A stretch of 64,000 nt of DNA. It comes from Escherichia phage LF82-41. The position numbers were made by a program, and so were the translations under genes. Under the pieces are notes generated by a model. It was not told the origin of the DNA, made no database searches, and worked only from the letters and a program-made list of their open reading frames with translations. Positions 4,687 through 40,236 of this stretch are shown piece by piece. Each line of letters starts with the position of its first letter. Within the stretch, counting starts at the first letter, position 1. The stretch lies in the sequence record PV660463; one strand, written 5' to 3'.

Positions 4687-4946
4687 ATCTCAACTTCCGC
4701 GAGTTCCATATATCCTTTGTTGATAACCTCTTTAAGGTCTTTAGAAAGAATAACATTAAAATGGTCGTTCATATGCCCGTTAACCAGACGAGTTATTTCG
4801 GCTTCAGATGACATATAAGGCACGTCCGAGTCCCAATGAGATAGACCTAAATGAGTATAAATCATCCCTTCGTCATCTGCGGTGTTGTACATTGAAACAA
4901 ACTCACCAGTCACTTTATGTTTTGCGTAGAAAAATTTAAATTTCAT
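4683..4946 (-). CDS. hypothetical protein (87 aa)
   Basis: ORF track. Confidence 0.5.
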   Translation of the reverse strand: MKFKFFYAKHKVTGEFVSMYNTADDEGMIYTHLGLSHWDSDVPYMSSEAEITRLVNGHMNDHFNVILSKDLKEVINKGYMELAEVEI

Positions 4947-5014
4947 GATGTTATCCTCTTTTAGATAGGACTACTATATCATAGTCCTACTTAGTTGTAA
5001 ACACTTTTATGAAA

Positions 5015-5572
5015 TTAGAGATGAAGATACCAGCCGTTGTAGTTGCTCTTGCGGACGATTTTCTTTAGGTCTTCATGGTCTCCCACGAACTTTATAGAAT
5101 AAGAGAAGACGTCAGGTGAGGTTTCTTTGACATTCAATATAATAATACAGTCAGCGACTCGATGATTAAGGAAGGGCCCTATGTTGATTCCGTTGCCGCC
5201 TGGATAATCACCACTGTATCCTGTGGTAACAGAAATCCATTTAGAATCCATCTGATGTGTCTTGACTTCTACACGAATTCCACAATATTTGGGATGAGCT
5301 AACACGTCCCATGCATACGTATACGGGTCTTCTACATCTTCAATACCTTTATTAACATATCCGTCTAGCCAATTTGCTACTACATACTCTGCAAAGACTG
5401 CAACCTTACAACGTCGAACTACGTCTTCTTTTATTTGACCTGGATCTTGTTTCAACGAGTACCGAGCAGTATCAGCGATCTTAACCTTCATTTCGCTAGT
5501 CAAAAACTCATTCGACAGGATAAATGTCGGAAGACTCTTCAGCCTCAACAGTCCCAAGTTCGTCTTTACCAT
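5015..5572 (-). CDS. possible endonuclease IV (DenB)-like protein; start set at internal Met with GAGG RBS (185 aa)
   Basis: Position immediately downstream of rIIB as T4 denB; length from Met-22 equals T4 DenB size; no sequence-level confirmation. Confidence 0.4.
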   Translation of the reverse strand: MVKTNLGLLRLKSLPTFILSNEFLTSEMKVKIADTARYSLKQDPGQIKEDVVRRCKVAVFAEYVVANWLDGYVNKGIEDVEDPYTYAWDVLAHPKYCGIRVEVKTHQMDSKWISVTTGYSGDYPGGNGINIGPFLNHRVADCIIILNVKETSPDVFSYSIKFVGDHEDLKKIVRKSNYNGWYLHL

Positions 5573-5795
5573 AGATACCTCTAATGTGTAGTTCGCCAAA
5601 ATAAATGCGGTCACCTTCTTCAAGATATTCTGCATCTACCGGTGGGATTTCAATAACAACTTCGTCACATTCTAACCAGCCGTAGTGTGCATCACCAGGA
5701 TGTTTTACCAATTTAGCACAATAAACTGATTTACACTTATGATGACCACGAAGATTAGCAATTTTGGATTCTGATACGTCAAATGGATGAATCAT
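5508..5795 (-). CDS. hypothetical protein (95 aa)
   Basis: ORF track; AGGGG RBS; overlaps proposed denB-like start. Confidence 0.4.
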   Translation of the reverse strand: MIHPFDVSESKIANLRGHHKCKSVYCAKLVKHPGDAHYGWLECDEVVIEIPPVDAEYLEEGDRIYFGELHIRGIYGKDELGTVEAEESSDIYPVE

Positions 5796-5805
5796 AATTA
5801 CCCCT

Positions 5806-5831
5806 AAAGAAAAAAGGGGACCGAAGTCCCC
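5806..5831 (-). terminator. rho-independent terminator after rIIB
   Basis: GGGGAC-ttcg-GTCCCC hairpin (5816-5831) followed by T-run on minus strand. Confidence 0.5.
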
Positions 5832-5836
5832 AATTA

Positions 5837-6784
5837 TTATTCTGCAAATAATTCAGTAACGTCTGAAATTACTTCATAACGACAAGTACGCATCTTAGCA
5901 TCACCGTAGTCAACCGGGATGGATACAACATCACGTGGATGAACTTTAACCTTAACAACTTTATCTGAGCTTGAACCAAAGTGGCGAATATAAGATTTAG
6001 CACAAACATGGAGACCGCGAGAACAGGTTTGAGTATCATCGTCGTTAACTCGAGTACGAGGCATTGAAACAACTTTACCTGGGGAGTTATCAAATGTACC
6101 ACTATAGCAGTCTAAATAGTCCTTACGAACTACTTTCCATGCATAGAAATACCCATCTTCAGTGATTTCAATATCGTTTGCAACCAAGAAGTCGAATAAA
6201 CGTTGTACAGCTTTTTCGCTTGGGTTTTCTAACAGGTTTTCAAGGAACGGCAGATAGAATTTAAAGTCTTCGCCTTTTTCCATAGAATCAATAATACGAT
6301 TAACCAGGCCAGAACGAATCTCTATACCTTGATAAAATAAACTACCACCTTCAATAACAACATTACCATCAACAAACTTACTAATAGCTTTCTTGATGTT
6401 AATAAGTTCGACAGCTTTACTAAGGTTTCCTGCGACCAGATTAGCTTTAATTTCTTCAAAATTTGCATGACTTGATGGGGTCGCATTGTATGCTACGCGT
6501 CCTTCAATAATTGAAATAAATTTAGATGACGCGTTCCATACGATTTCAGGACGATGTCCGCCGATAATAGGTTCATCATTTTCTGGAACTTCTTCGATTA
6601 CATAAGAGGCATCGTTTGATTCAGGGACAACGCCTTCTGCTTTAAAATTCTTAACAATCTTACGAAGAGTATCTGTTGAAATGTCGAAGTAATCGGCAAT
6701 TTCTTTACGAGTCCATTTGCCTGATTCAACCAGGCCGTAAGCTTCTAACTGTTCTTCTTGGGACAAGCATTTGATATTGTACAT
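5837..6784 (-). CDS. rIIB: rIIB rapid-lysis/membrane-integrity protein
   Basis: 315 aa; directly downstream of rIIA; N-terminal MYNIKCLSQEEQLEAYGLVESGKWTRKEIADYF consistent with rIIB. Confidence 0.8.
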   Translation of the reverse strand: MYNIKCLSQEEQLEAYGLVESGKWTRKEIADYFDISTDTLRKIVKNFKAEGVVPESNDASYVIEEVPENDEPIIGGHRPEIVWNASSKFISIIEGRVAYNATPSSHANFEEIKANLVAGNLSKAVELINIKKAISKFVDGNVVIEGGSLFYQGIEIRSGLVNRIIDSMEKGEDFKFYLPFLENLLENPSEKAVQRLFDFLVANDIEITEDGYFYAWKVVRKDYLDCYSGTFDNSPGKVVSMPRTRVNDDDTQTCSRGLHVCAKSYIRHFGSSSDKVVKVKVHPRDVVSIPVDYGDAKMRTCRYEVISDVTELFAE

Positions 6785-6793
6785 AATGTTTCC

Positions 6794-9007
6794 TTATTTA
6801 GCCGCTTCCACGGCCTTCATGAATTTAACGATTTGAGCGACCTGTTCTTTTGAAAGAGTACCACGTCGTCCCATGTATTCTGACACAATATGATAATTGG
6901 TTTCGAATTCAATAACCATTTTATCATCATTATCGTAAGCATTATCTTTAAGCTTATCGAAAATTTTAGCACACAATTCTAACTTCTTATTCAGGTCTGT
7001 ATTAGTAGCACCTGCGAATCGATTCCATCCCCAGCGATTATTTACTGTGGAGAGTTTTGCAAAGTCTTTACTGATTTCTTTGTTCTTAGAGCTAAAATAC
7101 TTACTAAGGAAGTTAAGCTCTTCATTACGAGTAATATGGTTTAGATAGGGCTGTGCTCTACGACTTGGTGATACATACTCATCATAATCCACTTTATCGA
7201 TTAGCGTAATATAGTCATTAATTGATTTTTCGAACAAGCATTCTACTTCACCAAGTTTACGAACTTTCTTAGCAATCTGTGGACGAACTACAGTGAACTC
7301 TTTAATACCTGACAAATCAGCAATACGAGTCAAGAAATTGGAGTCATAGTTCAACCAACCTTTATCTGCATCAAGACATTCAGCATTAGAACGATTACGA
7401 ACTATAGCATAACCTTGGATTTCATCTGCTTCACTTGCCGGAATAAAGAGGTCTTCTGATACCCAAACATCGTTTTCATTCTTAAAGAATCGATGAGCAC
7501 TTGGCGATTTAGGACGAGGCTCATTAGTTCGTTTCCTGACTTCAATCCATGGCTTAACGATTTGTAAAAGCTCTGAAGTCTTGTACATGTTAATGTTGTC
7601 GCCATCAAAGATAACTTTAAGGCGTTCCAGAAGTTTCATTGCATCTTCGTCTGTAGGGTCAACGAATAGTACGCTTTTACCAAAACCGCGTGGAACTTTA
7701 CCAGTTAATTTAACCTCGTCTTTAGACATTTCAATTGAATTAAGAGCTCGCATTAATGGAACGCGTCCCTTAACGTCGTCAATAACAATTTCAACGTTTT
7801 TAATGTTAATGCCAATCAGACTGTTAATTGAAATGGTTGATGATGAGCTACCACTTTCACGAATACGACGAAGACGAGGGGATTCAACGATATCGTATAC
7901 GACACCAAGATTACACCACTCAGGCCCCATTTTAAAACGTTTGTACAACTCAGAATAAGTTAGTTGTTCTTTAGAGTATTTCAGTGATTCAATATTAGAC
8001 CCAGCCTTTTCCATGTATTTACGAGCGGTATAGCCAAGAGAATCAATTTCACGGAACACATGACGCGGGTATTTACAATCAATCCATTTCTTAGAATCTT
8101 CAGCAAATAATTTTGCATCAATTTCTGCAACACGTTTATGGATATTTGCTACTGTACGTTTATCAAATGACAATGCTTCACGAGACGGGGCTACATCTAG
8201 TTCACCCATAGGGAATTTAATATAAGCTGTAGTGCATCGTGTCATCATCCATGTTTGTTCTTTAATAACACTTCCGATTGGATATACAATACCACCGTAA
8301 ACAGCCATGATATTACCGCGTTCACCCCATGGAGCTTCCTTGGCCAAATATACATCGTCAAATTCAGGAAAGTATTTAATATCTTTAACACCACGAACTT
8401 CTGCAATATCACCTAGAGGACGCATAACATAAGCAATTTCAGATGCGAACTTTTCAAAATCTTCCGGGTTAACCGGTACAACTACTTCTACACCCGTACG
8501 GTCATCAGGACCCATCTTATCTACAAAGGTCGGCTTAATCTGTGGACCTGTGTCATCTTGGTAGATTACGTAACCACGAACTTCACCGTTGTGATAAGAC
8601 GTAAGGTTAAACGTATCGGTATATGCTAATGGAGCTTTAGAGCCGAGTCCGAATCCACCAATGAAATCGTTACTCGATGTTTTAGTTGAAGCAAAATATG
8701 AGTTATAAATTCCTGGCTCTTCGTCATTACCTCGAATGGTGAAATCGCTCATACCAGGACCAAAGTCTCGAACTACAAAGCGCGGGTCTAACCGACCTGG
8801 AGCTTGAACAATAAACTTATCAGTGCAACCGTTAAGAATTTGTCCATCGATACAGTTTGTAATTAATTCACGTACACAAGCCAATTCTTTGTTTGTATAA
8901 AGGTCATTAGACAAAATCTTATAAACTTTGCTATTGCCTTGAATAGTGAATGCTGTGCTCTTACCACCTGAACCAATAATAGTTTCTTTAGCCGTTTCAA
9001 TAATCAT
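6794..9007 (-). CDS. rIIA: rIIA protein
   Basis: 737 aa; N-terminal GHKL-type ATPase-like region; T4 rIIA size and gene order. Confidence 0.85.
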   Translation of the reverse strand: MIIETAKETIIGSGGKSTAFTIQGNSKVYKILSNDLYTNKELACVRELITNCIDGQILNGCTDKFIVQAPGRLDPRFVVRDFGPGMSDFTIRGNDEEPGIYNSYFASTKTSSNDFIGGFGLGSKAPLAYTDTFNLTSYHNGEVRGYVIYQDDTGPQIKPTFVDKMGPDDRTGVEVVVPVNPEDFEKFASEIAYVMRPLGDIAEVRGVKDIKYFPEFDDVYLAKEAPWGERGNIMAVYGGIVYPIGSVIKEQTWMMTRCTTAYIKFPMGELDVAPSREALSFDKRTVANIHKRVAEIDAKLFAEDSKKWIDCKYPRHVFREIDSLGYTARKYMEKAGSNIESLKYSKEQLTYSELYKRFKMGPEWCNLGVVYDIVESPRLRRIRESGSSSSTISINSLIGINIKNVEIVIDDVKGRVPLMRALNSIEMSKDEVKLTGKVPRGFGKSVLFVDPTDEDAMKLLERLKVIFDGDNINMYKTSELLQIVKPWIEVRKRTNEPRPKSPSAHRFFKNENDVWVSEDLFIPASEADEIQGYAIVRNRSNAECLDADKGWLNYDSNFLTRIADLSGIKEFTVVRPQIAKKVRKLGEVECLFEKSINDYITLIDKVDYDEYVSPSRRAQPYLNHITRNEELNFLSKYFSSKNKEISKDFAKLSTVNNRWGWNRFAGATNTDLNKKLELCAKIFDKLKDNAYDNDDKMVIEFETNYHIVSEYMGRRGTLSKEQVAQIVKFMKAVEAAK

Positions 9008-29328: not shown

Positions 29329-29670
29329 TTAAAAGAATTTAAATTTTTTCTTGGTTCGTTCATTAAAAGCTTGTTGTACTTGCATTGTAACACATTTTTC
29401 AACATGTGGTGCAAGTTCTGCTTTTCTGTCCTGGTCAAGAACTGCAAAGTCCATTACGATTTTACCATCAACCCAGTCTAGTTTTGTAATATAGACTATA
29501 TGATGGGAACCGTCTTCAAGTGTAATCAGAATCTCTTGAATGACATTTTCCATTGCTGAACGGACAATTTTAAGAGATTCATTAAACACTCGTTCTTTGC
29601 GAATGTCCTCCCCTTCCGAAGAAGGGGATTCATCAACGATTTCTAGATTTAAATCATCGAGATTATTCAT
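29329..29670 (-). CDS. 40: gene 40-like protein (position-based; start at internal Met)
   Basis: about 113 aa between 41 and uvsX. Confidence 0.45.
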   Translation of the reverse strand: MNNLDDLNLEIVDESPSSEGEDIRKERVFNESLKIVRSAMENVIQEILITLEDGSHHIVYITKLDWVDGKIVMDFAVLDQDRKAELAPHVEKCVTMQVQQAFNERTKKKFKFF

Positions 29671-30835
29671 CGAAATCTTCCATTTCGTCAAGGTCGTTTT
29701 CAATATCTGCTGCAGACGGAGCATCAGAAGCTTTAACAGGAACTTTAGTTGTTGCTTTGCAATTAATAAGGTCGTTAACAGCGTCATCAACTTCTTTAAT
29801 AGAAGAGATAGCACCTAGTTTATATTTAGTTTCAATTGCATCTCGGAAAGGTTTGTGTTTAAACAACGGTCCCCAGAATTCTACACAATCAGTAGCTTTA
29901 GCACGCCACGATTTCTCTTCACGAATCATTTCGCCTGTTTCTTCGTCAAGGAATTCACGAGCATACCAACCGGCTTTAGGCTTAACAACAAATCCAATTT
30001 CAGTTGCCATTTCTAACAAGCCACTGAATGGGTCGATACCACCATCAAAATTAACTGTGATTGGGAAAGTAGATTTCTCTTTAACTGTACGAGATTTTTC
30101 TGCTTTCAACGTGAAGTCATAACCGGTCAATTCTGTACCTTCTTTAACCTGACGTTTAGAGATAAAGAATACAGTGTTAGCAGAATAAAGAATACCTGTA
30201 CCACCGCCCATAATCTCTTTAGGATACAATCCGCCAATTTCCATTGCGGTATGGTTAATTGCAACACACGGAATATCTTTAATAGTCAGATACGGGGTCA
30301 CAATACGGAAAAGAGATTTAAGTGCCTTAGCACGAGACATATCACCTACAACTTTCTCGTTCAATGCATCTTCAGTTTCTTTCTTAGATGCAGTATTACC
30401 GATTGAATCGATAAAGATAATAACTTTATCACCGCGTTCAATCGCGTCAAGCTGATTAGTCATATCAACTTTAAGTTGTTCGACTGACTGAATTGGTGTA
30501 TGAACTACACGGTCTAAATCAACACCCATTGAACGAAAATAAGATTCTGAAGCACCAAATTCTGAATCATAGAACAAACAGATTGCATCTTTATATTTCT
30601 TCATATACGCTGCAACCATAGTTAGTCCAAACAACGTTTTAAAGTGTTTAGAAGGAGCAGCAAAAATAGTCAAGCCTGATTGCAATCCTGCATTCAGAGC
30701 ACCACCTAGTGCAATATTCAACATCGGAATACGAGTAGGGACTTCATCACGATTATTAAACAGCTTAGACTTAGTCAAGTCTGCAGTCATTTTAGAAGTA
30801 GAAGCTTTAATCAGACGAGATTTTAAATCAGACAT
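29663..30835 (-). CDS. uvsX: UvsX recombinase (RecA-like)
   Basis: 390 aa; RecA fold features; T4 UvsX size and synteny. Confidence 0.9.
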   Translation of the reverse strand: MSDLKSRLIKASTSKMTADLTKSKLFNNRDEVPTRIPMLNIALGGALNAGLQSGLTIFAAPSKHFKTLFGLTMVAAYMKKYKDAICLFYDSEFGASESYFRSMGVDLDRVVHTPIQSVEQLKVDMTNQLDAIERGDKVIIFIDSIGNTASKKETEDALNEKVVGDMSRAKALKSLFRIVTPYLTIKDIPCVAINHTAMEIGGLYPKEIMGGGTGILYSANTVFFISKRQVKEGTELTGYDFTLKAEKSRTVKEKSTFPITVNFDGGIDPFSGLLEMATEIGFVVKPKAGWYAREFLDEETGEMIREEKSWRAKATDCVEFWGPLFKHKPFRDAIETKYKLGAISSIKEVDDAVNDLINCKATTKVPVKASDAPSAADIENDLDEMEDFDE

Positions 30836-30933: not shown

Positions 30934-31482
30934 TTAACGAGCCCATTTAATGATTTCTGTAATCAAATTATTACGTTCGCTTGCATTAAATCCTATAACT
31001 TTGTTAGAACCATCATGATTAAGTAATTGATACGTTTGGATTTTGTTATGAATTGCAAACTCTTCAAAATGTGAAATGACTGTATTAAAACCGAATGAAG
31101 ACAAAGTAATAAGGTCGTCTTCAAAACTTTCAGTCATTTCGTTACGTGTTAAAATAATTGTGAACACATCATGGTTTTGGCAAAGACGAACATAATCCTG
31201 TTCATAAACGTCAAGAACCGAGTCCGCATCTTGTCGAATACGTCCATAAACCCAGTTACTAATATATCCACGGTCTAATAGATAAATCTTAGTAGGGTCT
31301 AAATAATTCAACATCGTTTCGAAACAGCCAACTTCATTTCGAGACTTAACATCGAAACGCCCATCAACTGTTCGTTTAGGGAAATCAATCTTTACATATC
31401 TTTCACTAATTTCCATTATGTCATTAATGAAAGTTGTTTTACCAGCATTATCCGGCCCGTCTACTAAAATAATTTTAGCCAT
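30934..31482 (-). CDS. P-loop kinase-like protein (182 aa)
   Basis: Walker A ILVDGPDNAGKTT at N-terminus; sits in T4 beta-gt slot. Confidence 0.55.
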   Translation of the reverse strand: MAKIILVDGPDNAGKTTFINDIMEISERYVKIDFPKRTVDGRFDVKSRNEVGCFETMLNYLDPTKIYLLDRGYISNWVYGRIRQDADSVLDVYEQDYVRLCQNHDVFTIILTRNEMTESFEDDLITLSSFGFNTVISHFEEFAIHNKIQTYQLLNHDGSNKVIGFNASERNNLITEIIKWAR

Positions 31483-31483
31483 T

Positions 31484-32383
31484 TTATTCCTCGATTACGA
31501 CATCTTCGTATTTAGGTATATTATACGGCGAAGAAATTAAAGCATTAAAGTAGATGAACTCACCAAGACCTGGATGGAATACTTCTTCAGGATTTTCGAA
31601 ATATTGAATCTTCGGACGTCCTTTAAGAATTTGATAGTACTCAGTTTTAGTTGGATTAAAAATTCGAATCAGCGCTTCTTCAGGATACTTATTTCTGTCG
31701 AAACTATTATTTGGATCAGTTATATAAAGCGGTTGACCTAATTGAATTGCGCATTCAACAACTTGTTCAAAACGATAGCATGGGTCACTAATTCGAAATG
31801 GATGAAAAATACCATCTAGATGAATAGGAGCCAAATCACCTACAAGACGCTGCATGACGGAAGGACGTATAACTTTCTGCGTTACGATAATCTTATTACC
31901 ATCTGCACCTGCGTTAACCAGCACTTCTTTTTGACGTTCATTCAACACAGTAGTTTGAAGTGAACGATTAACAGACAACATGTCGGTTTTTAAGAATTCA
32001 TCAATATAAAAACGTGGTTTATTAGGGTCTGCAGTGATATTGAAATTGAATTCTACATCAAAAGCGCCGTCATATCCAGTGATATCTGTGATTAGAAAAT
32101 CACAATCATAATAAGCAATTAATGAATCAACCACAAATTCATTTTCAGACCAAAAATATTTACGAGTATTATACGCGTTATCTTTATACCATAATGGAAC
32201 AAACTTAAATTCTGGGAAAAGACGTTCGCATTCTTTAATATCAGATGCATTACGTGGATATGTAATCACATCACCCGGATTAGCACGGTGCAAATGAAGT
32301 TGGAAGTTGCCATCCTTAAGGATAGCATACTGTCCAGTTTCATAAGACCGCATACTCAAGATAGGTACGCGGAAAATAGCCAT
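31484..32383 (-). CDS. hypothetical protein (299 aa), beta-gt slot
   Basis: ORF track; tight packing with neighbours; no motif recognised. Confidence 0.55.
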   Translation of the reverse strand: MAIFRVPILSMRSYETGQYAILKDGNFQLHLHRANPGDVITYPRNASDIKECERLFPEFKFVPLWYKDNAYNTRKYFWSENEFVVDSLIAYYDCDFLITDITGYDGAFDVEFNFNITADPNKPRFYIDEFLKTDMLSVNRSLQTTVLNERQKEVLVNAGADGNKIIVTQKVIRPSVMQRLVGDLAPIHLDGIFHPFRISDPCYRFEQVVECAIQLGQPLYITDPNNSFDRNKYPEEALIRIFNPTKTEYYQILKGRPKIQYFENPEEVFHPGLGEFIYFNALISSPYNIPKYEDVVIEE

Positions 32384-33099
32384 TAGTCAAGGAATCCTTT
32401 AACATAATCAAAATCACGTTCAAACACATGGGCACTTACCATGGTATGAGTATAATCACCAACTTCTACACCACATTCGTTAGCGATATAATGAAGTAAT
32501 TTTCCTTGGAGATAAAAATCCAACTGCATAACAACAGCACAGTTCTGGGAACGCATATGACAGTGGGTATAAAGCTTACCGTCACGAATATAATAAGTCA
32601 CTGAGTCAGTACATGGATATTCAAGCGTTTCGTCCGAATCAAGCAAAGCCTGATCAGAACTTTCTAAAATTTGGAACACAACTCTTCGAGAGTTAGGCTT
32701 CTCTTTAAGTTCTTTTAGAAGAGCCGGTAATTGGGCCGCAATGCGAGGACCATAGAAAGTGTTGAAGTTCGCCGGCAAAGCATCCGATTTTGGTTTAGAA
32801 ATAAATTTAGCGACATTAGGATATGCCTTAAACGCTTCTTCTGCATCAGTACCACCAGAAATCATAAACTTCCAGAAGTCTTCAGCATATTCATAAGAGA
32901 TGCGGTTAATACGTGGGTCGGTCATTTTGAATGATGATGGAGTGTCAACAACTACTGTCATAGACCCAATTTCATTACAACGTCCAATACGAGAATCAGT
33001 TACGAATTCTGGGTTTTCTAAAATTTCACGATTGACTGCTTTAAATGCGGATTGAAAATCTGCGGCTTTGATATATTTCATTGTGTTATGTTTTCCCAT
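32383..33099 (-). CDS. thymidylate synthase-family pyrimidine hydroxymethylase-like enzyme (divergent gp42-like)
   Basis: 238 aa; NSRRVVFQI and EYPCTDSVTYYIRDGKLYTHCHMRSQNCAVV align with T4 gp42 DSRRGIMIY / FMCTNTVQYLIRDKKINAVVNMRSND. Confidence 0.65.
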   Translation of the reverse strand: MGKHNTMKYIKAADFQSAFKAVNREILENPEFVTDSRIGRCNEIGSMTVVVDTPSSFKMTDPRINRISYEYAEDFWKFMISGGTDAEEAFKAYPNVAKFISKPKSDALPANFNTFYGPRIAAQLPALLKELKEKPNSRRVVFQILESSDQALLDSDETLEYPCTDSVTYYIRDGKLYTHCHMRSQNCAVVMQLDFYLQGKLLHYIANECGVEVGDYTHTMVSAHVFERDFDYVKGFLD

Positions 33100-33141: not shown

Positions 33142-33381
33142 TTATTTGAATTTCTTGGCAATGTTGGTATACCGTAAAGCTTCAGCATCGATACTTCCAA
33201 GAACACTGTGAAGAAATGCATCAGCGTAGTATTCCAATCGAACAGGTTCTTTAATCATTTTAGCCGCTTTGGTTTCAAACAGGCCCATAAGGGCCTTTTT
33301 AAGAATTTGTTCGCTGCTGTTAATTTTTATAGTCAAAATCTCTTCGTTAAGTTGGTGGTTAAAAGTTTTTCTAGAAATCAT
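33142..33381 (-). CDS. hypothetical protein (79 aa)
   Basis: ORF track. Confidence 0.45.
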   Translation of the reverse strand: MISRKTFNHQLNEEILTIKINSSEQILKKALMGLFETKAAKMIKEPVRLEYYADAFLHSVLGSIDAEALRYTNIAKKFK

Positions 33382-34538
33382 TCTGGGTACCTCAAAGCGT
33401 CATCAGAGTTAGTTATATCAATAATAGATATAGAGTTTTCTGCTAACCCGTTTTTAGATAACTGACGTTTATAATATCTTTCACAATATGTACACGTCGT
33501 CCCACAGATTTCATTAGCACAATCGAAATCTGGATGTCTGAACCACCTTTTTTCTAAAAAGCCATCTAACAAAGAGGTTTCAATATTTACTGTATGTGAA
33601 AACTCAGTTTCATTTTCAAGAGTGAAAATAGTCTCTAAAGGCTTCCACAGTTCTAACAAATTACCTTCAAACTTTTCAGAAGCGTATGCTTCAAGAACTT
33701 TCAAAATGTAGTCTGTGCTACCTGTACGTCCTGAAACTTTGAATTGAGTGATACCAATATCATTATAAAGTTTCAAATCTTGAGGACGAACAAAACGAGT
33801 TCTCAACCAGTTAAATGGGTCTGTATCACGAGCTTTAATACAGTGCTGCATAGGATACCCATTTAAGGATTTAGCATCATCAGCGGTAACATCAGTACTA
33901 TGGAAAATATAGCAAGAGTCACGATAACTACAATGTGTTGTATACCCTTTACCAGCATTAGAACAGAACTCATTTACAAGAACTTCAAATATTATATTGT
34001 TCTTATTGCAAAACTCTGCTGCACGCTTCAGGAAAGAAACTGAACGGTTCTTATGAATTCCGCAACAGACCTTTTTGATGTTATATTGGTCGTGCAAGTA
34101 TTTGATTTGAGTTACAGCATCGACATGTAGAATTGTTGAAACTTCAATCTCAATATCTTTATTGACTTCACGAACAATTTCCATAACAACAGGGTTAGCG
34201 ATAGTAATACGCCATACGCCTATTGACCAAAGATACTGAACATAATCCTGAATAGCTTTCTTCTTCCACTCAACTAGTTCTCTTTTTGAACCAGGATTTA
34301 TCGTGTTGAGTGTATAGTTAAAGCAAATACCTAATTCGTTACAACGTTTAACGTAGTCTTCTAACATCTTTTTGTCAACGTCAGGAAGCCTAAAATCAGG
34401 TCTGGCTGCTACAAAAGCCATTTCTCTTGTAGAGCCATATACTTCGTTTATCAAGCTATTAGGATAAGTTTTATTGAGCTCTACGATTTTATCAAGAAGA
34501 GCTAAATCAAAATTCGTTCCGATTTTAAAAGTATTCAT
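33378..34538 (-). CDS. Cys-rich protein (386 aa), possible Fe-S/U32-like enzyme
   Basis: C-terminal C-x3-C-x3-C-x2-C (CANEICGTTCTYC); internal EFCSNAGKGYTTHCSY loosely resembles U32 signature; tentative. Confidence 0.5.
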   Translation of the reverse strand: MNTFKIGTNFDLALLDKIVELNKTYPNSLINEVYGSTREMAFVAARPDFRLPDVDKKMLEDYVKRCNELGICFNYTLNTINPGSKRELVEWKKKAIQDYVQYLWSIGVWRITIANPVVMEIVREVNKDIEIEVSTILHVDAVTQIKYLHDQYNIKKVCCGIHKNRSVSFLKRAAEFCNKNNIIFEVLVNEFCSNAGKGYTTHCSYRDSCYIFHSTDVTADDAKSLNGYPMQHCIKARDTDPFNWLRTRFVRPQDLKLYNDIGITQFKVSGRTGSTDYILKVLEAYASEKFEGNLLELWKPLETIFTLENETEFSHTVNIETSLLDGFLEKRWFRHPDFDCANEICGTTCTYCERYYKRQLSKNGLAENSISIIDITNSDDALRYPE

Positions 34539-34595: not shown

Positions 34596-34997
34596 TTATA
34601 GATTCGGTTTATATGATTTAAATGTTTCGAATTCGCCTTTATTCATAAGAGCTTTGAATTCGTCAGGACGCATAGCTTTGTCGTCGATAATCCAATCATA
34701 TACTGGTTTATGTGTTAGCAAATTATGGTACTTCAAACCAATGTTTTCCAAGTTCTGAATCAGACTTGGGAGAATGTCAATTGCTATACGTCCAGGACCT
34801 ACTGACTTCATACCGCGAGCAGTGTAAAGCGTTATGGTATGCCCTGCATCATACAGGGCATTAATGGCGGTCACCATTTCGACGTCTGGTTTGAAGTTCA
34901 CGTAATCACGATTGTTATTCCACTCTGTTATACAATCATCGACATCAAAACAAAGATTAAGCATGTTTTCTACACGGTGCATTAGATTCGTTCCCAT
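34596..34997 (-). CDS. HAD-superfamily phosphatase-like protein (133 aa)
   Basis: N-terminal FDVDDCIT resembles HAD motif I. Confidence 0.5.
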   Translation of the reverse strand: MGTNLMHRVENMLNLCFDVDDCITEWNNNRDYVNFKPDVEMVTAINALYDAGHTITLYTARGMKSVGPGRIAIDILPSLIQNLENIGLKYHNLLTHKPVYDWIIDDKAMRPDEFKALMNKGEFETFKSYKPNL

Positions 34998-36667
34998 TGA
35001 TGAGTGATATCGCCACCGATTGGACGATAAGAAACACCAGTTTCTTTATCAGTTAGTACCCATTTACCAGGATTTTTTGTAATCAGAGTAGCCGTTACAG
35101 GTTCTGCTACGTCATAACTAATAGAGCCGTCTTGAAGTACACGGCCCATGTTATGTAATTGCTTAGTCAGAAGTTCCATACCTTTATAATATGCGGCTAC
35201 CGCTTTAAGTGGATTATTCTTGAAATAACCACCTAATGCAATCCAGATAATTGCTACAGCCAAATGATGATACTCGTTAAACGAACTCATCTTTCCATAT
35301 TTGTAAACTAATGGATTGATGTTAATAGTCACATTACAAGTTGTTTCATCAATAGTAAACTGTCCCCAGGTCGGATTAGCATTGAATTCATCATAACCTG
35401 AAACAGCATAAAGCACTTTAGCTTCATCATATAATTTTGGCCCGTAAATCTTGGTTTCACCAAAATATCCACGAGGGTCGATAAACTTGACTTCGCCGTT
35501 ATCAGTAATCATAGTATTACTGAAGTTTGGGTCGCCGTGAATAACAGAGTACTGTCCCTGAGAACGGTTATGATAACGAATAAGATGTTCTAAAGCTTGT
35601 TTCAACATTGGCTTCAGACGTCCAATCTTAGTGTAGTTCACGTGTGTGATTTTACCAAATGAATCAATCAATGGCTGAATGCTTTCACAACGATCAATAA
35701 CTTTCGTATAGAACTCTTTAGTGAAATCACGGCGAACAGTTTCAGGACTTACAAAATAAGTGTCTGTGCTGAATTTCAGTGCATCTAAAATTGCATCAAC
35801 AATTTGTGGACGAGCAAGACTTGATTTGGATTTAATATATTCAAATGCCGGCTTACCTTTAATACGTTCCATTTCAAAATTATTTTCATTTACCGAAACT
35901 AACTGTGGAACTGAATCTGATTTCACTTTCAAATACCACGAAATCTCATCTTTCTGAAGAGCCCGTCCCTGTTCGGTTAATGCGAATTTAGTTACAGTTT
36001 CTTCACCAATTTCAACTGCATTAAAACTACGATTAAGTTCACGAACTTCATGAGCTTTTTCAAGTTTAGGCATATCACCTAAATCAATTATATTCATAAG
36101 CTCTGATTTATTGAATGCGCCGCTGTAAAGGAATTCTACGAAATCACGTCCTTTGCAGTATTCATGAATTTCCTCATCAGTAGAACCCATATAGAATTCC
36201 CAGTCTTTGAACTGATAAATTCCTACAACATTACCACCTGTTGAACCTACGTTAGTGATATTTTCACCGTCGAAATTATATCGACATTCGTCACCCTTAA
36301 CATAGATTGCGTTAACATTCCAAGACCATGAACCAAAATCAGGAATAATATCGCACCAGTTAACAACTACGTTATGGCCGTCTAAATCTTTATGTAATTT
36401 AGCAAGAGCATAAGCAGAACCATACGCTTCATCAACTGTACGAATAGTCACATTGAACCCTTCTTGCTCACAATAAGCTCGAACGGTTTCAGCAAATTTT
36501 GAATGAACTACTACAATAATTTCATCTGCGCCAAGGTCAGAATAAATTGTATACAAATTGCTCAGAATAGTGTCTTGTTTATAGTTAACAAGCACCTTAG
36601 GAATATGGTGAGTAATTGGATATAAACGAGTTGCTAATCCAGCACCAAGAATAACAGCTTTTTTCAT
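34982..36667 (-). CDS. bifunctional sugar-phosphate nucleotidyltransferase / APH-like kinase
   Basis: 561 aa; N-terminal MKKAVILGAGLATRLYP...PKVLV NTP-transferase signature; C-terminal VIHGDPNFSNTMITDNGEVKFIDPRGYFG kinase motif. Confidence 0.65.
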   Translation of the reverse strand: MKKAVILGAGLATRLYPITHHIPKVLVNYKQDTILSNLYTIYSDLGADEIIVVVHSKFAETVRAYCEQEGFNVTIRTVDEAYGSAYALAKLHKDLDGHNVVVNWCDIIPDFGSWSWNVNAIYVKGDECRYNFDGENITNVGSTGGNVVGIYQFKDWEFYMGSTDEEIHEYCKGRDFVEFLYSGAFNKSELMNIIDLGDMPKLEKAHEVRELNRSFNAVEIGEETVTKFALTEQGRALQKDEISWYLKVKSDSVPQLVSVNENNFEMERIKGKPAFEYIKSKSSLARPQIVDAILDALKFSTDTYFVSPETVRRDFTKEFYTKVIDRCESIQPLIDSFGKITHVNYTKIGRLKPMLKQALEHLIRYHNRSQGQYSVIHGDPNFSNTMITDNGEVKFIDPRGYFGETKIYGPKLYDEAKVLYAVSGYDEFNANPTWGQFTIDETTCNVTININPLVYKYGKMSSFNEYHHLAVAIIWIALGGYFKNNPLKAVAAYYKGMELLTKQLHNMGRVLQDGSISYDVAEPVTATLITKNPGKWVLTDKETGVSYRPIGGDITHQWERI

Positions 36668-36708: not shown

Positions 36709-36852
36709 CTAGTTAAAGCATTCATACTTTGCCTGTAGACCAATCATAATCCATCCAATTACAAGTGTTGGAATCATTACCGGAGCCGTTAAGCTCCAGT
36801 AGATAGTCATGACAAGCATCAATAGTAAAAGTCCTATTGTTATTGCTTTCAT
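36709..36852 (-). CDS. small membrane protein (47 aa)
   Basis: Manual translation MKAITIGLLLLMLVMTIYWSLTAPVMIPTLVIGWIMIGLQAKYECFN; ATGA overlap with SIS gene stop. Confidence 0.35.
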   Translation of the reverse strand: MKAITIGLLLLMLVMTIYWSLTAPVMIPTLVIGWIMIGLQAKYECFN

Positions 36853-37484
36853 TGCTCGCCTCGTAACATGGCACCTAGTGCACCGCCTGGATGGAACTTA
36901 AGGAAATCATTAGAGGTAAATCCACGTTCAGATGAAAGGTTGATAGCGAACGTATCGATAAGCGCTAACAACAATGTAGTAGACATCGTCGGAGCTAAAG
37001 AGTTCTCGTCAACTTCTACCGCGATACCGGTACAGAACGTATAATCAAAAAGAGCTTCGTATTCTTGTGGAATGTCAGGGTTACAATGTAACAGAATCTG
37101 TTTAACCTGAGGACGAATCATACGAAGATGTTTAGCAACACCTATCATTTCTTCAGTCTTACCGGAACGACTGATGTGAACTAATACATCATTAGGTGCA
37201 ATAAATCCTGCGTCACCATGAGAATAATGCCCAGTGTTCAAATACATGCTAGGAATACCTAGTGAAGCAAATGTCTCAGAAGCTTTAGTTGCAATATTAG
37301 CATTCTTACCAACACCTGTAATAATTACTCGGCTTTCATAATTACTCAGTCCAGGGCGTCGAAGAGTTTCTAGAATAGCATTATAACGAGCAGGGTTTTG
37401 ACTAATTACTTTGGCCATAGCGGCCAAAGAAGAAGCTTGTTTTATGATTGCGTCAATAGCGATAGTAATAGGAGTAGTTTTCAT
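36849..37484 (-). CDS. SIS-domain sugar-phosphate isomerase (arabinose-5-phosphate isomerase-like)
   Basis: 211 aa; SIS features; C-terminal FHPGGALG resembles KdsD/KpsF-type API motif. Confidence 0.6.
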   Translation of the reverse strand: MKTTPITIAIDAIIKQASSLAAMAKVISQNPARYNAILETLRRPGLSNYESRVIITGVGKNANIATKASETFASLGIPSMYLNTGHYSHGDAGFIAPNDVLVHISRSGKTEEMIGVAKHLRMIRPQVKQILLHCNPDIPQEYEALFDYTFCTGIAVEVDENSLAPTMSTTLLLALIDTFAINLSSERGFTSNDFLKFHPGGALGAMLRGEQ

Positions 37485-37524: not shown

Positions 37525-40236
37525 TCAAAAATCAAACATATCGAACAGAGATGCTTTCTTCTCGTAATCGAGTTTCGCTGCTGATGTGAATCCTTCAAGT
37601 GGTTTAATAAATGTCTTCTCAAGGAGAACAGTGTAGTCCATCCAATGAAGTACGTCGTCTTTAATTAAATCTGTGATTTCAGTACCAGAAGGCCATGCGA
37701 TACATTTATCACCGAACGGGTTTCCTTCACGTAAAGGCAGAACATATACTTTTTCACCTTCTACAACTTGTGGAGCATCAATATTACCTTTGATAGCTCG
37801 GTTATATGTCAGAATTCCACGAATATGGAACGGGCATTTGGGACCAGGGAATCCACCTACATCATATTTAGCAATGTTATTCGCAGAAGATACCGACGCG
37901 ATGCTAATATAATTCAATTGACGGAATTCTTTTTCAAACTCTTTAAAATATTCTTGTAATGATTCTTCACCTTCCTGAAGCATACGACGAATACATTCCT
38001 TAAGAGCTTTCTGTACTGCTTTAGGAGTCGAAGATTTCTGAGTCTCTAGACCCATGATTTTGAGTTTAGGCTCAGCGTAACGAGTACCTTCCATATCCCA
38101 CACGTTTAATGCATAACGTTTCTTACCAGTCCAGAATCCGCCAATACCTTTAGAACCAAGCGGAGGACCAGCGATAGCTTCTCGGTCCATGAACATTAAG
38201 TGTTGTTTATTGTTCATGTATTCACACATTTCACGGAAACCTTTATCAATAGCTGGTTCCATACGTTCACGTGCGAACTTATCTAAGAAGTCTACCCAAT
38301 GGTTGGTATCACGGAATTTAGATTCACCAACCTTATCGATAATTTTATCAGCAGATACGTAAATAGAGTCTGTATCACCATAAAGAACGAAAGCTTCACC
38401 TTCTGTACCACAAACTTCATTCAGATATTCATTAACTTTACGTTCAATCCACTGTAAAGCCATTTGACCAAATGTTGTGATTGCAGTAGCATTACGCAAA
38501 TCATAATAACGGAACCAAACGTTACCAAGTGCACCATAAAGCGAGTTGATGAGCAATTTACGGTTAATTTGTGCAGTCATACCTGCAACTTCAGTACGTT
38601 GAGCTCTAAACAACATTTCATTAAGAGATTTAGCAGACAACTTTTTAATCTTTTCTTTAATCTCATCGCTGAAGTCGAAACGATAATCAACATCTAATGG
38701 TTCGTCAACAGAAAGATTAGGATTATGCAATGCCTCTTTAATTATTTCACCATTACGTTGAGCTGCAAGCATGTAACCTTTATGTTCTTTACGTTGATTA
38801 AAGACCTTAGTGATTTCAGTTGGAACTACACCATCACGGTCTTTATAATACATCATGCCGTTAGGAGAGCAACTGTACACATCTGAAGGACGTTCAGCGA
38901 TTGCGTTAATATAATCATGCAGTGGAGCTACTTTAAACGTTCCTGCTATTGTTTCCGGGCTAATATTCACTTGGCGAATAATACTTGGATACAGGGATGT
39001 AAGGTCGAAACTCATTACATATTTGTATCGATTTGGAATAGGTTCCTTAACAAAAGCACCTGGATAAGGTTGAACCGGGTGAGAACGACCTTGTGGAATC
39101 ACCTTGCTCTGCTCTTTAAGGCTATTAAAAATAATAGCATCCCATGTTTTAATTGGGCTAAACACAGATTGAATCTGTATCTTAGCATAATAACCCATGT
39201 CCAAACTCAAGTTGATGAACTGACGCTTAGCATCAATTTGCAATACACGATACACGTCGATAATGTTATAAGAAATATACCGTTGGTGATTGCTTTCACG
39301 AAGCTTAGAAATAGGGCCGTCATATTTCAGTTTACCAACATTCAATTCAAATTCTGAAATGTAATCCAGAGAATACGACGGTTGATTGGTAAAAGAGAAT
39401 TTTTTGTAAAGGTCAATGTAATCAAGAACAGAGATACCGAACATTGTAATGATTTCACGAGAACCATACATGTTTTCGATAACTTTAACACGAGTTTTAC
39501 GATGTGGTGATAAACGTTTCGCAGTAGATTCGCCAAAAATATTCTTGATTCGGTTATACACATATGGAATATCAAATGACTCAACGTTCCATCCAGTCAA
39601 AATGACAGGAGTTTTCTGTTGCCAGAAGTTGAGATATTCCATCAACAATTCTTTTTCGTTATCGAACGGCATATAAATGATTTTATCGATAATTTCAGAT
39701 GGAACTTCATCACCGCCTTGTTCTTGAAGCTTAGCCGCAATTTCGATAGACCATTCTTCTACATTACCATACGGAGAATTCAATAGATCAAATACGTAGA
39801 ACCTGTCGTCAATTGAGTCATAATGGGTGATAGCATCAATCGGATGTTTTGCTTGTGACGGCTCAGGGAACCCATCCGGAGATGTTACTTCGATGTCGAA
39901 GTTAGCCACACGAATTTTTGTATGGTCGTATTTGATTTCATAGTTATAAGTGTCAGACAAATACGCCAATTTGAAATCGTCCATGCCAAGTGCTTCAAGT
40001 CCGATATCTTCCATGCGTTTAATCCATTGGGAGGCATCACGCATATTAGCGAACAACTTACGAGTACACGGTTTACCGTAGATATCGAAATATTTCGTAG
40101 CCTGACTTTCTGGACAATGAGCAAACAGTGATGGTTTATATTCTACTTCACGAGTACGTTCACGGCCATTAGAATCGATGTAACGTTCAAAAATTGAATC
40201 ACCAATCTGTTCAACCGTTAAGTAAAATTCTTTCAT
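37525..40236 (-). CDS. 43: DNA polymerase (family B)
   Basis: 903 aa; exo motifs (FDIE), pol motifs (SLYPS, YGDTDS); T4 gp43 size and synteny. Confidence 0.95.
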   Translation of the reverse strand: MKEFYLTVEQIGDSIFERYIDSNGRERTREVEYKPSLFAHCPESQATKYFDIYGKPCTRKLFANMRDASQWIKRMEDIGLEALGMDDFKLAYLSDTYNYEIKYDHTKIRVANFDIEVTSPDGFPEPSQAKHPIDAITHYDSIDDRFYVFDLLNSPYGNVEEWSIEIAAKLQEQGGDEVPSEIIDKIIYMPFDNEKELLMEYLNFWQQKTPVILTGWNVESFDIPYVYNRIKNIFGESTAKRLSPHRKTRVKVIENMYGSREIITMFGISVLDYIDLYKKFSFTNQPSYSLDYISEFELNVGKLKYDGPISKLRESNHQRYISYNIIDVYRVLQIDAKRQFINLSLDMGYYAKIQIQSVFSPIKTWDAIIFNSLKEQSKVIPQGRSHPVQPYPGAFVKEPIPNRYKYVMSFDLTSLYPSIIRQVNISPETIAGTFKVAPLHDYINAIAERPSDVYSCSPNGMMYYKDRDGVVPTEITKVFNQRKEHKGYMLAAQRNGEIIKEALHNPNLSVDEPLDVDYRFDFSDEIKEKIKKLSAKSLNEMLFRAQRTEVAGMTAQINRKLLINSLYGALGNVWFRYYDLRNATAITTFGQMALQWIERKVNEYLNEVCGTEGEAFVLYGDTDSIYVSADKIIDKVGESKFRDTNHWVDFLDKFARERMEPAIDKGFREMCEYMNNKQHLMFMDREAIAGPPLGSKGIGGFWTGKKRYALNVWDMEGTRYAEPKLKIMGLETQKSSTPKAVQKALKECIRRMLQEGEESLQEYFKEFEKEFRQLNYISIASVSSANNIAKYDVGGFPGPKCPFHIRGILTYNRAIKGNIDAPQVVEGEKVYVLPLREGNPFGDKCIAWPSGTEITDLIKDDVLHWMDYTVLLEKTFIKPLEGFTSAAKLDYEKKASLFDMFDF

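What the first reader, a model, noticed from the sequence alone, without database searches (positions are those of the whole stretch)
34982..36667. Nucleotidyltransferase fused to an APH/choline-kinase-like kinase
The N-terminus carries the sugar-phosphate nucleotidyltransferase signature (GAGLATRL...PK.LV) and the C-terminus the kinase Brenner-type motif (HGDPNFSN...FIDPRGYFG). Such fusions typically carry out anomeric phosphorylation followed by nucleotidyl activation of a sugar or alcohol. It is unusual in a T4-type core replication module.
Basis: inference. Interest (0 to 1): 0.7.

Follow-up and report, generated by a model that had tools for sequence, protein, structure and literature searches.

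The report
Phage UDP-arabinose kinase/uridylyltransferase (AfhE ortholog)
This gene encodes a two-domain enzyme that an RB69-like phage uses to make activated arabinose for decorating its DNA; a 96%-identical protein from phage HY126 has reportedly already been characterised, so the finding is real but already known.

Summary
Window 34982-36667 (minus strand) is one 561-aa ORF. It has an N-terminal sugar-1-phosphate nucleotidyltransferase domain (residues 1-205) and a C-terminal APH/choline-kinase-fold kinase (216-507). Both quoted motifs sit at the stated places. The window is a Mosigvirus (RB69-like) genome. The protein is 98.8% identical to frameshift-corrected RB69 ORF53_52c and 96% identical to the phage HY126 protein at the same position. 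Lee et al. 2026 (NAR), citing He et al. [quoted passage not shown] The reported pathway is: ribulose-5-P to arabinose-5-P (SIS isomerase, 36849-37484); then arabinose-1,5-bisphosphate (this kinase); then arabinose-1-P (HAD phosphatase, 34596-34982, start overlapping this gene's stop); then UDP-arabinofuranose (this nucleotidyltransferase). The product feeds glycosyltransferases that arabinosylate 5-hydroxycytosine in phage DNA. The gene is standard in this phage clade. Novelty: already known. Side leads: the same isomerase/kinase-transferase/phosphatase module is widespread in bacteria and archaea and is fused into one protein in giant-virus-like contigs. The neighbouring U32 gene may be an oxygen-independent hydroxylase.

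The parts
34982..36667 (-). Whole ORF, 561 aa plus stop: bifunctional nucleotidyltransferase/kinase, ortholog of RB69 ORF53_52c (gp52:53) and HY126 AfhE
   Evidence: ORF. It is 98.8% aa identical to frameshift-corrected RB69 and 96% identical to HY126 XAN60479.1. Full-length match to phrog_4098.
36053..36667 (-). N-terminal sugar-1-phosphate nucleotidyltransferase domain (residues 1-205). Carries G8-x-G10-x-x-x-R14-L, K24, G83, D106 and D195/D198.
35147..36022 (-). C-terminal APH/choline-kinase-fold (eukaryotic-like) kinase domain (residues 216-507). Carries K227, E241, the Brenner motif H377-G-D379-x4-N384, and the metal-binding D397 in IDPRG.
34985..35146 (-). C-terminal extension of about 54 aa (residues 508-561), beta-rich. 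Present in phage homologs but absent from cellular ones. Function unknown.
   Evidence: AF2 secondary structure and pLDDT of 80-90. Cellular matches end at query residues ~497-507. Distant database homologs cover only ~89% of the query.
34596..34982 (-). HAD-type small phosphatase (128 aa from the ATG at 34982), ortholog of RB69 gp51 and HY126 AfhF. Its start overlaps the stop of the fusion gene (TAATG).
   Evidence: Sequence. NCBIfam TIGR01689 capsule biosynthesis phosphatase, E 2e-13. 98% identical to HY126 XAN60478.1. A profile of the small HAD genes that follow cellular homologs hits it at 7e-15.
36849..37484 (-). SIS-domain D-arabinose-5-phosphate isomerase (211 aa), ortholog of RB69 gp55. 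It supplies the kinase substrate.
   Evidence: Pfam SIS. NCBIfam KpsF/GutQ 9e-32 and KdsD 4e-30. 99% identical to the HY126 protein annotated as D-arabinose-5-phosphate isomerase.
31484..32383 (-). Putative first DNA arabinosyltransferase (299 aa), ortholog of RB69 gp46:47. It would consume the UDP-arabinofuranose.
   Evidence: ORF. Collinear at 97.5% nt identity with RB69 24.1-34.1 kb. Role as proposed in PMC13326640. No Pfam hit.
32383..33099 (-). Thymidylate-synthase homolog (238 aa), ortholog of RB69 gp48 5-hydroxy-dCMP synthase. It makes the acceptor base.
   Evidence: Pfam Thymidylat_synt. By eye, the 'RSQN' sequence carries Asn where E. coli ThyA has D169; this is the signature given in PMC13326640 and the placement was not checked by alignment.

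Best explanation
The ORF encodes the Mosigvirus ortholog of AfhE (RB69 gp52:53), a bifunctional enzyme of the phage pathway that makes UDP-D-arabinofuranose. The proposed steps are as follows. (1) The SIS isomerase encoded two genes upstream converts host ribulose-5-phosphate to D-arabinose-5-phosphate. (2) The C-terminal APH/choline-kinase-fold domain uses ATP to phosphorylate C1, giving arabinofuranose-1,5-bisphosphate. Catalytic base D379, N384 and D397 would bind Mg-ATP and K227/E241 the phosphates. (3) The small HAD phosphatase, encoded immediately downstream and translationally coupled, removes the 5-phosphate. (4) The N-terminal nucleotidyltransferase domain (G-x-G-x-x-x-R14, K24, D106, D195) condenses arabinofuranose-1-phosphate with UTP to give UDP-arabinofuranose and pyrophosphate. 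(5) Phage glycosyltransferases transfer the arabinose to 5-hydroxycytosine in phage DNA, which shields the DNA from host nucleases. Shown here: the domain folds, the catalytic residues, orthology and gene context. Taken from the literature: the substrates, the order of steps and the use of UTP. Inferred: the roles assigned to individual residues.
Against: I could not read He et al. 2026 or Mahler et al. 2025. The substrate, the step order and the UTP preference are therefore second-hand, via PMC13326640. Equating 'AfhE' with HY126 XAN60479.1 is inferred from position and architecture. Table 1 of PMC13326640 still lists the older order (phosphatase first, then kinase on free arabinose). The 54%-identical Thanatos homolog TH1_060 showed no pyrophosphorylase activity with xylose-1-P and five NTPs (PMC12838424), although that was not the proposed substrate. 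The window protein's kinase domain does not reach any Pfam kinase cutoff on its own.
Confidence: 0.88

Rival explanations
1. Salvage-type order. The HAD phosphatase first dephosphorylates arabinose-5-P to free D-arabinose. The kinase domain then phosphorylates the anomeric hydroxyl of the free sugar, and the nucleotidyltransferase acts directly on that product. The two domains would then catalyse consecutive steps, as in AmgK/MurU or LicA/LicC.
For: This is the order shown in Table 1 of PMC13326640 ('dephosphorylates Araf5p to Ara'; 'phosphorylates Ara to Araf1p'). The closest structural relatives (choline kinase, LicA, glucosamine kinase, APH) act on non-phosphorylated substrates.
Against: The text of the same paper adopts the order kinase, then phosphatase, then transferase, based on the HY126 biochemistry. 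Five invariant basic residues beyond the ATP-binding lysine line the kinase domain family-wide. The phosphatase gene lies downstream of the kinase gene and is translationally coupled to it. The logic parallels GmhA / HldE or HddA / GmhB / HddC. Free D-arabinose would be lost to host metabolism.
Confidence: 0.07
2. The enzyme activates a different sugar or uses a different nucleotide than UDP-arabinofuranose, for example a CDP- or GDP-pentose, xylose or a deoxypentose.
For: The nucleotide specificity was not tested here. The best sequence and fold matches of the N-terminal domain include CTP- and GTP-dependent enzymes (LicC, HddC, GDP-mannose pyrophosphorylases). The Thanatos authors proposed a deoxypentose.
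Against: RB69 and Mosigvirus NP DNA contain arabinose on 5-hydroxycytosine. An arabinose-5-P isomerase is encoded alongside. UDP-Araf, but not UDP-Arap, supported arabinosyl transfer in vitro. AfhE is reported as a UDP-D-arabinose pyrophosphorylase.
Confidence: 0.03
3. The N-terminal GT-A-like domain is itself a glycosyltransferase that puts the sugar on cytosine or DNA. This was the original idea for RB69 ORF053c and was suggested again for Thanatos TH1_060.
For: CDD called the domain 'glycosyltransferase family A' (PMC6024577; PMC12838424).
Confidence: 0.02

Closest known systems
AfhE of Escherichia phage HY126 / RB69 gp52:53 (ORF53_52c)
   Same: Same length, same two-domain architecture and same position between the SIS isomerase and the HAD phosphatase. 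96% aa identity to HY126 and 98.8% to corrected RB69. This is the same protein in a sister phage.
   Different: Seven substitutions relative to RB69. About 20 substitutions relative to HY126, concentrated in residues 241-264 of the kinase N-lobe. None touches a catalytic residue.
HldE (RfaE), and the GmhA / HddA / GmhB / HddC nucleotide-heptose pathways
   Same: Identical pathway logic, from established knowledge of these pathways. A SIS isomerase makes an aldose phosphate, a kinase phosphorylates C1 to give a bisphosphate, a HAD phosphatase removes the distal phosphate, and a nucleotidyltransferase forms the NDP-sugar. HldE likewise carries the kinase and the transferase on one polypeptide although they catalyse non-consecutive steps. 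The N-terminal domain's best profile hit in the PDB is HddC.
   Different: The sugar is a pentose, not a heptose. The kinase here has the APH/choline-kinase fold, whereas HddA is a GHMP kinase and the HldE kinase is ribokinase-like. The HldE transferase domain is a cytidylyltransferase-like fold, not the RmlA/GalU-type fold. The domain order is reversed.
AmgK/MurU and LicA/LicC
   Different: Those are separate proteins acting consecutively on a non-phosphorylated substrate (MurNAc, choline), with no phosphatase step. Sequence identity is only 12-21%.
Bifunctional L-fucokinase/GDP-fucose pyrophosphorylase (FKP) and the Leishmania arabino/fucokinase-pyrophosphorylases
   Same: A nucleotidyltransferase fused to an anomeric sugar kinase that yields an NDP-sugar. 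This comparison is recalled from my own knowledge and was not tested here.
   Different: Those kinases are GHMP-type, act on free sugars in salvage, and make GDP-pyranoses.

Membership tests
Sugar-1-phosphate nucleotidyltransferase (Pfam PF00483, RmlA/GalU/LicC/MurU-type) | Score above the curated family threshold | tested here: met
   39.2 bits against a cutoff of 21.2, residues 3-99.
Sugar-1-phosphate nucleotidyltransferase (Pfam PF00483, RmlA/GalU/LicC/MurU-type) | N-terminal G-x-G-x-x-x-R-L loop and the following catalytic Lys | tested here: met
   G8-A-G10-L-A-T-R14-L and P23-K24. G10, R14 and K24 are conserved in at least 93% of 72 homologs.
Sugar-1-phosphate nucleotidyltransferase (Pfam PF00483, RmlA/GalU/LicC/MurU-type) | Rossmann-like alpha/beta fold of the family | tested here: met
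Sugar-1-phosphate nucleotidyltransferase (Pfam PF00483, RmlA/GalU/LicC/MurU-type) | NTP + sugar-1-P to NDP-sugar + PPi activity | not testable with these tools
   Reported for the HY126 ortholog, second-hand via PMC13326640.
APH / choline-kinase (eukaryotic-like kinase) fold | Brenner motif H-x-D-x4-N and the downstream metal-binding Asp | tested here: met
   H377-G-D379-P-N-F-S-N384 and D397 in IDPRG. Conserved in 99-100% of 72 homologs.
APH / choline-kinase (eukaryotic-like kinase) fold | N-lobe Lys / alpha-C Glu pair | tested here: met
   K227 and E241 are invariant in all 72 sequences. They lie on strand 224-229 and helix 232-247 of the model. Assignment of these roles is by inference.
APH / choline-kinase (eukaryotic-like kinase) fold | Score above the curated Pfam threshold (PF01636 or related families) | tested here: not met
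   The window protein scores only 17.1 (Fructosamin_kin, cutoff 22.4) and 16.2 (EcKL, cutoff 22). Its homologs P0056 (25.6) and P0082 (28.6) pass the PF01636 cutoff of 23.2. Fold membership therefore rests on structure, not on the sequence model.
APH / choline-kinase (eukaryotic-like kinase) fold | Bilobal kinase fold | tested here: met
AfhE / RB69 gp52:53 orthologous group | Near-identity over the full length and conserved gene order (SIS - small ORF - fusion - HAD - U32 - small ORF - ThyA homolog - GT - TMK-like) | tested here: met
AfhE / RB69 gp52:53 orthologous group | The name AfhE refers to HY126 XAN60479.1 | not testable with these tools
   He et al. 2026 is not held. The mapping is inferred because XAN60479.1 is the only nucleotidyltransferase-kinase fusion in the HY126 cluster, and PMC13326640 equates AfhE with RB69 gp52:53.
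HddA/HddC and HldE heptose-activation enzymes | GHMP-type or ribokinase-type kinase domain | tested here: not met
   The kinase domain has the APH/choline-kinase fold. The protein works like these enzymes but is not a member. Only the N-terminal domain is homologous to HddC.

The most novel reading that the evidence does not exclude
The phage enzyme may be one branch of a largely unannotated module found across domains of life. Homologs at 24-35% identity keep every catalytic residue and occur in many bacteria (Sutterella, Dakarella, Massilia, Polynucleobacter, Trichodesmium, Helicobacter/Campylobacter, Prochlorococcus, Clostridia) and archaea (Micrarchaeota, Thermoplasmata, Methanobrevibacter). 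They are usually followed by the same small HAD phosphatase and often sit next to a SIS isomerase. In giant-virus-like contigs the module is fused into single HAD-SIS-transferase-kinase proteins. On this reading, synthesis of NDP-D-arabinofuranose (or a related NDP-pentose) from ribulose-5-P would be a widespread route for glycan building in cells and giant viruses, not a phage speciality. The phage-only 54-residue tail might tether the enzyme to the phosphatase or the glycosyltransferases. He et al. 2026 may already cover part of this; I could not read that paper.
Probability: 0.45. Interest if true: 0.45.

Novelty: already known. Interest (0 to 1): 0.15.

Why it matters
The enzyme supplies the activated sugar for arabinosylated 5-hydroxycytosine. 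This DNA hypermodification lets RB69-like phages, which are common phage-therapy candidates, escape restriction enzymes and shapes their sensitivity to type IV and other defence systems. For this gene the biology is already published, so the value here is confirmation. A raw-sequence reader correctly recognised the architecture and even the sugar. The added comparative results (a conserved cellular isomerase/kinase-transferase/phosphatase module, four-domain fusions in giant-virus-like contigs, and a possible anaerobic hydroxylase next door) point to where open questions remain.

Tried and rejected
- **Single-sequence PDB search of the kinase domain:** it returned only noise (antibody chains). 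The domain is too divergent for phmmer.
- **Search for a solved AfhE structure:** sequence searches and fold searches found no close homolog in the PDB copy.
- **Reading the primary papers:** He et al. 2026 and Mahler et al. 2025 are not held, and no preprint was found.
- **Promoter and terminator scan of 32-40.5 kb:** no more sites than in shuffled sequence, so it is uninformative.
- **Searching cellular loci with the phage HAD protein directly (tblastn, phmmer/HMM):** only mis-binned phage contigs were found. The link appeared only when the profile was built from the cellular small ORFs and run against the phage protein.
- **Glycosyltransferase reading of the N-terminal domain:** rejected; see the rival explanations.
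- **Model coordinates:** these were not available to scripts. I could not test whether the invariant basic residues line the kinase active site.

Full report
**1. The observation**

Window 34982-36667 holds one minus-strand ORF of 561 codons. A GAGGA ribosome-binding site lies 8 nt before the ATG. The base composition of the region (36-38% G+C) matches the rest of the window. The ORF is conserved at full length in 363 of 373 matching phage records, so it is a real gene.

**2. What the window is**

Megablast places the gene at 97.6-98.2% nucleotide identity in Mosigvirus genomes such as phiC120 and mobillu. Ten kilobases around it are collinear with RB69 at 97.5% identity. The minus-strand gene order is as follows:

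| Gene | Window coordinates |
|---|---|
| DNA polymerase gp43 | 37525-40236 |
| SIS-domain arabinose-5-P isomerase | 36849-37484 |
| 47-aa hydrophobic ORF | 36709-36852 |
| The fusion gene | 34982-36667 |
| 128-aa HAD phosphatase | 34596-34982 |
| U32-family protein | 33378-34538 |
| 79-aa ORF | 33142-33381 |
| Thymidylate-synthase homolog | 32383-33099 |
| 299-aa protein (RB69 gp46:47, a glycosyltransferase by literature) | 31484-32383 |
| 182-aa protein (RB69 gp45; 'thymidylate kinase' in the RB69 record) | 30934-31482 |
| UvsX | 29663-30835 |

The fusion's stop codon and the phosphatase's start codon overlap (TAATG), which suggests translational coupling.

**3. Domain assignments, tested independently**

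The N-terminal ~100 residues pass Pfam's NTP_transferase threshold. They give weak partial NCBIfam hits to GlmU, AglF, RmlA, MurU and HddC. The best single-sequence PDB match is LicC.

Sequence libraries barely see the C-terminal half. There are sub-threshold hits to Fructosamin_kin and EcKL centred on the Brenner motif, and nothing in the PDB by phmmer.

I collected 309 homologs, aligned 47 of them and predicted the structure. The model has mean pLDDT 93.7 and pTM 0.91, with no disordered segment.

More distant homologs pass the Pfam APH cutoff themselves (P0056, P0082).

I also aligned the window protein with 71 homologs, nearly all bacterial or archaeal:
- **Transferase residues** G10, R14, K24, G83 and D106 are at least 93% conserved.
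- **Kinase residues** K227, E241, H377, D379, N384 and D397 are 99-100% conserved.
- **Five further basic residues** (R213, K322, R326, R399, K417) are invariant. I take this as a hint of an anionic substrate, but it is inference.

Residues 508-561 form a beta-rich tail that cellular homologs lack.

**4. What is already published**

- Thomas et al. 2018 (PMC6024577) showed that RB69 ORF053c and ORF052c are one 561-residue gene split by a sequencing error. They expressed a ~64 kDa product and linked it, with the SIS protein ORF055c, to UDP-arabinose synthesis. My alignment finds that single extra base in the RB69 record. After removing it, the window protein is 554/561 identical.
- Lee et al. 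2026 (PMC13326640) showed that the modified base in RB69 and DLP3 is arabinosylated 5-hydroxycytosine, not hydroxymethylcytosine. They modelled gp52:53 as an N-terminal nucleotidyltransferase plus a C-terminal kinase. They report that He et al. [quoted passage not shown]
- HY126 is in the phage collection (PP658200.1). Its protein at the same position is 96% identical to the window protein. The flanking phosphatase and isomerase are 98% and 99% identical.
- The 54%-identical Thanatos homolog TH1_060 is essential for phage propagation (PMC12838424).

I could not read He et al. or Mahler et al. 2025 directly. The substrate order and the UTP preference are therefore second-hand.

**5. Mechanism**

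The best-supported scheme is: ribulose-5-P to arabinose-5-P (SIS isomerase); then arabinofuranose-1,5-bisphosphate (the kinase domain); then arabinofuranose-1-P (HAD phosphatase); then UDP-arabinofuranose (the transferase domain); then transfer to 5-hydroxycytosine by glycosyltransferases.

This is the pentose counterpart of the GmhA / HldE or HddA / GmhB / HddC heptose pathways (established knowledge), built with a different kinase fold. The family profile's best PDB hit is HddC.

The main rival is phosphatase first, then a kinase acting on free arabinose. That order appears in Table 1 of Lee et al. but is superseded in their text.

**6. Independent comparative support found here**

A scan of one genome per species found 80 loci with homologs at 24-35% identity over residues ~1-505. 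They come from diverse bacteria and archaea.
- A SIS gene is adjacent in 41 of those 80 loci.
- A ~125-aa HAD protein with a DxDGT motif follows the fusion gene, usually overlapping its end, in 63 of the 81 loci searched. A profile of these small proteins matches the window's phosphatase at E 7e-15.
- Other homologs are 890-955-aa proteins with HAD, SIS, nucleotidyltransferase and kinase domains in a single chain.
- One such protein, P0084, lies between a MutS-HNH gene, Rpb10 and Rpb2 on a 103-kb contig. That gene set looks like a giant virus.

These gene fusions and the conserved neighbourhood support the functional link between the three phage genes without relying on the literature.

**7. 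Verdict on the finding**

The gene is already known, as a near-identical ortholog of an enzyme that a citing paper reports as experimentally characterised. It is not anomalous in its genomic position. It is fixed there in Mosigvirus and related Straboviridae. From my own knowledge of the T4 map, gene 42 and beta-gt occupy the equivalent locus in T4.

**8. Side lead: the U32 gene**

The adjacent U32 gene (33378-34538, RB69 gp50) appears in Lee et al. only as a table entry, 'sugar or heterocycle reductase'.

U32-family proteins include several oxygen-independent hydroxylases: RlhA (23S rRNA 5-hydroxycytidine synthase), TrhP and UbiU/UbiV. UbiU/UbiV use prephenate as the oxygen donor, and TrhP and RlhA are prephenate-dependent (PMC5727448, PMC6599085, PMC10990095).

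The evidence gathered here is:
- The phage protein's C203, C209 and C233 align with cysteines of UbiU and RlhA. From my own knowledge, these correspond to the Fe-S ligand cysteines of UbiU.
- It has an extra C-terminal CX4CX3CX2C cluster.
- It is at least 80% identical across all 221 phage records that carry it. The fusion protein falls to 43-72% identity in the same kinds of phage.
- The listed hosts are Enterobacterales and Shewanella. Acinetobacter and Vibrio, which account for 57 and 17 of the fusion-gene records, are not among the host genera listed for U32.
- In a gut-metagenome contig (L009), a 51%-identical U32 gene sits in the same module next to a DAHP-synthase/chorismate-mutase fusion, which is a prephenate-producing enzyme.

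This suggests an anaerobic, prephenate-dependent route to 5-hydroxycytosine. It would complement the O2- and flavin-dependent thymidylate-synthase homolog. The idea is untested and may be addressed in the papers I could not read.

Noticed in passing
window 33378-34538 (minus strand); L009:9827-10930; L010:8308-9453: The U32-family gene next to the finding (RB69 gp50) may be an O2-independent, prephenate-dependent cytosine 5-hydroxylase. Its C203, C209 and C233 align with UbiU/RlhA cysteines, and it has an extra C-terminal CX4CX3CX2C cluster. It is at least 80% identical in all 221 phage records, and Acinetobacter and Vibrio are not among the host genera listed, although both appear for the fusion gene. 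In L009 a 51%-identical homolog lies beside a DAHP-synthase/chorismate-mutase gene. Lee et al. 2026 list it only in a table.
   Followed up: partly
L003:8001-10781 (P0084); also P0088, P0089, P0091, P0092, P0096, P0108: There are proteins of 890-955 aa with HAD, SIS, nucleotidyltransferase and kinase domains in one chain. That is the whole ribulose-5-P to NDP-arabinose route in a single polypeptide. P0084 lies between MutS-HNH, Rpb10 and Rpb2 genes on a 103-kb contig that looks like a giant virus. P0091 comes from a eukaryote transcriptome set. Separately, TetV-1, a giant virus of a green alga, has a gene annotated as arabinose-5-P isomerase (PMC12126595); I did not check whether it is related to these fusions.
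   Followed up: partly
L008-L085 (e.g. L071 Trichodesmium erythraeum IMS101 4798-7856; L021 Dakarella massiliensis 5307-7898): The isomerase / transferase-kinase / small-HAD module is conserved in many bacteria and archaea. The small HAD gene follows in 63 of 81 loci searched, and a SIS gene is adjacent in 41 of 80. Neighbours include ribulose-phosphate 3-epimerase, a TylF-type methyltransferase and a TauD dioxygenase. The cellular product and its glycan are unknown to me.
   Followed up: partly
L006 (CAVJPU010000002.1, 167 kb), L007 ('Candidatus Izemoplasma' MAG contig, 120 kb), L010 (Oscillospiraceae MAG contig, 36 kb), L009: Some contigs filed under bacterial MAGs look like T4-like phage contigs. 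L006 and L007 carry the full arabinosylation cluster, including the ThyA homolog, glycosyltransferase and TMK-like gene. L010 carries T4-type topoisomerase II genes next to the module. These are probably binning errors.
   Followed up: no
window 36709-36852 (minus strand): A 47-aa strongly hydrophobic ORF (MKAITIGLLLLMLVMTIYWSLTAPVMIPTLVIGWIMIGLQAKYECFN) lies between the isomerase and the fusion gene. Its ATG overlaps the isomerase stop codon (ATGA). It is annotated as hypothetical in mobillu and HY126. It looks like a small membrane protein of unknown role.
   Followed up: no
window 35874-35945 (residues 241-264 of the fusion protein): Most of the ~20 differences from HY126, including a one-residue indel, are packed into the kinase N-lobe strands at residues 241-264, while the rest of the protein is nearly identical. 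This could be a small recombination patch or a locally relaxed surface.
   Followed up: no
window 34985-35146 (residues 508-561): A beta-rich C-terminal tail is conserved among phage homologs but absent from cellular ones. It has no assigned function and could be an interaction module.
   Followed up: no
L002:4095-5781 (RB69 NC_004928 28094-29780): The RefSeq RB69 record still carries the single extra base that splits this gene into ORF052c and ORF053c. The window sequence lacks it. This agrees with the correction published in 2018.
   Followed up: yes
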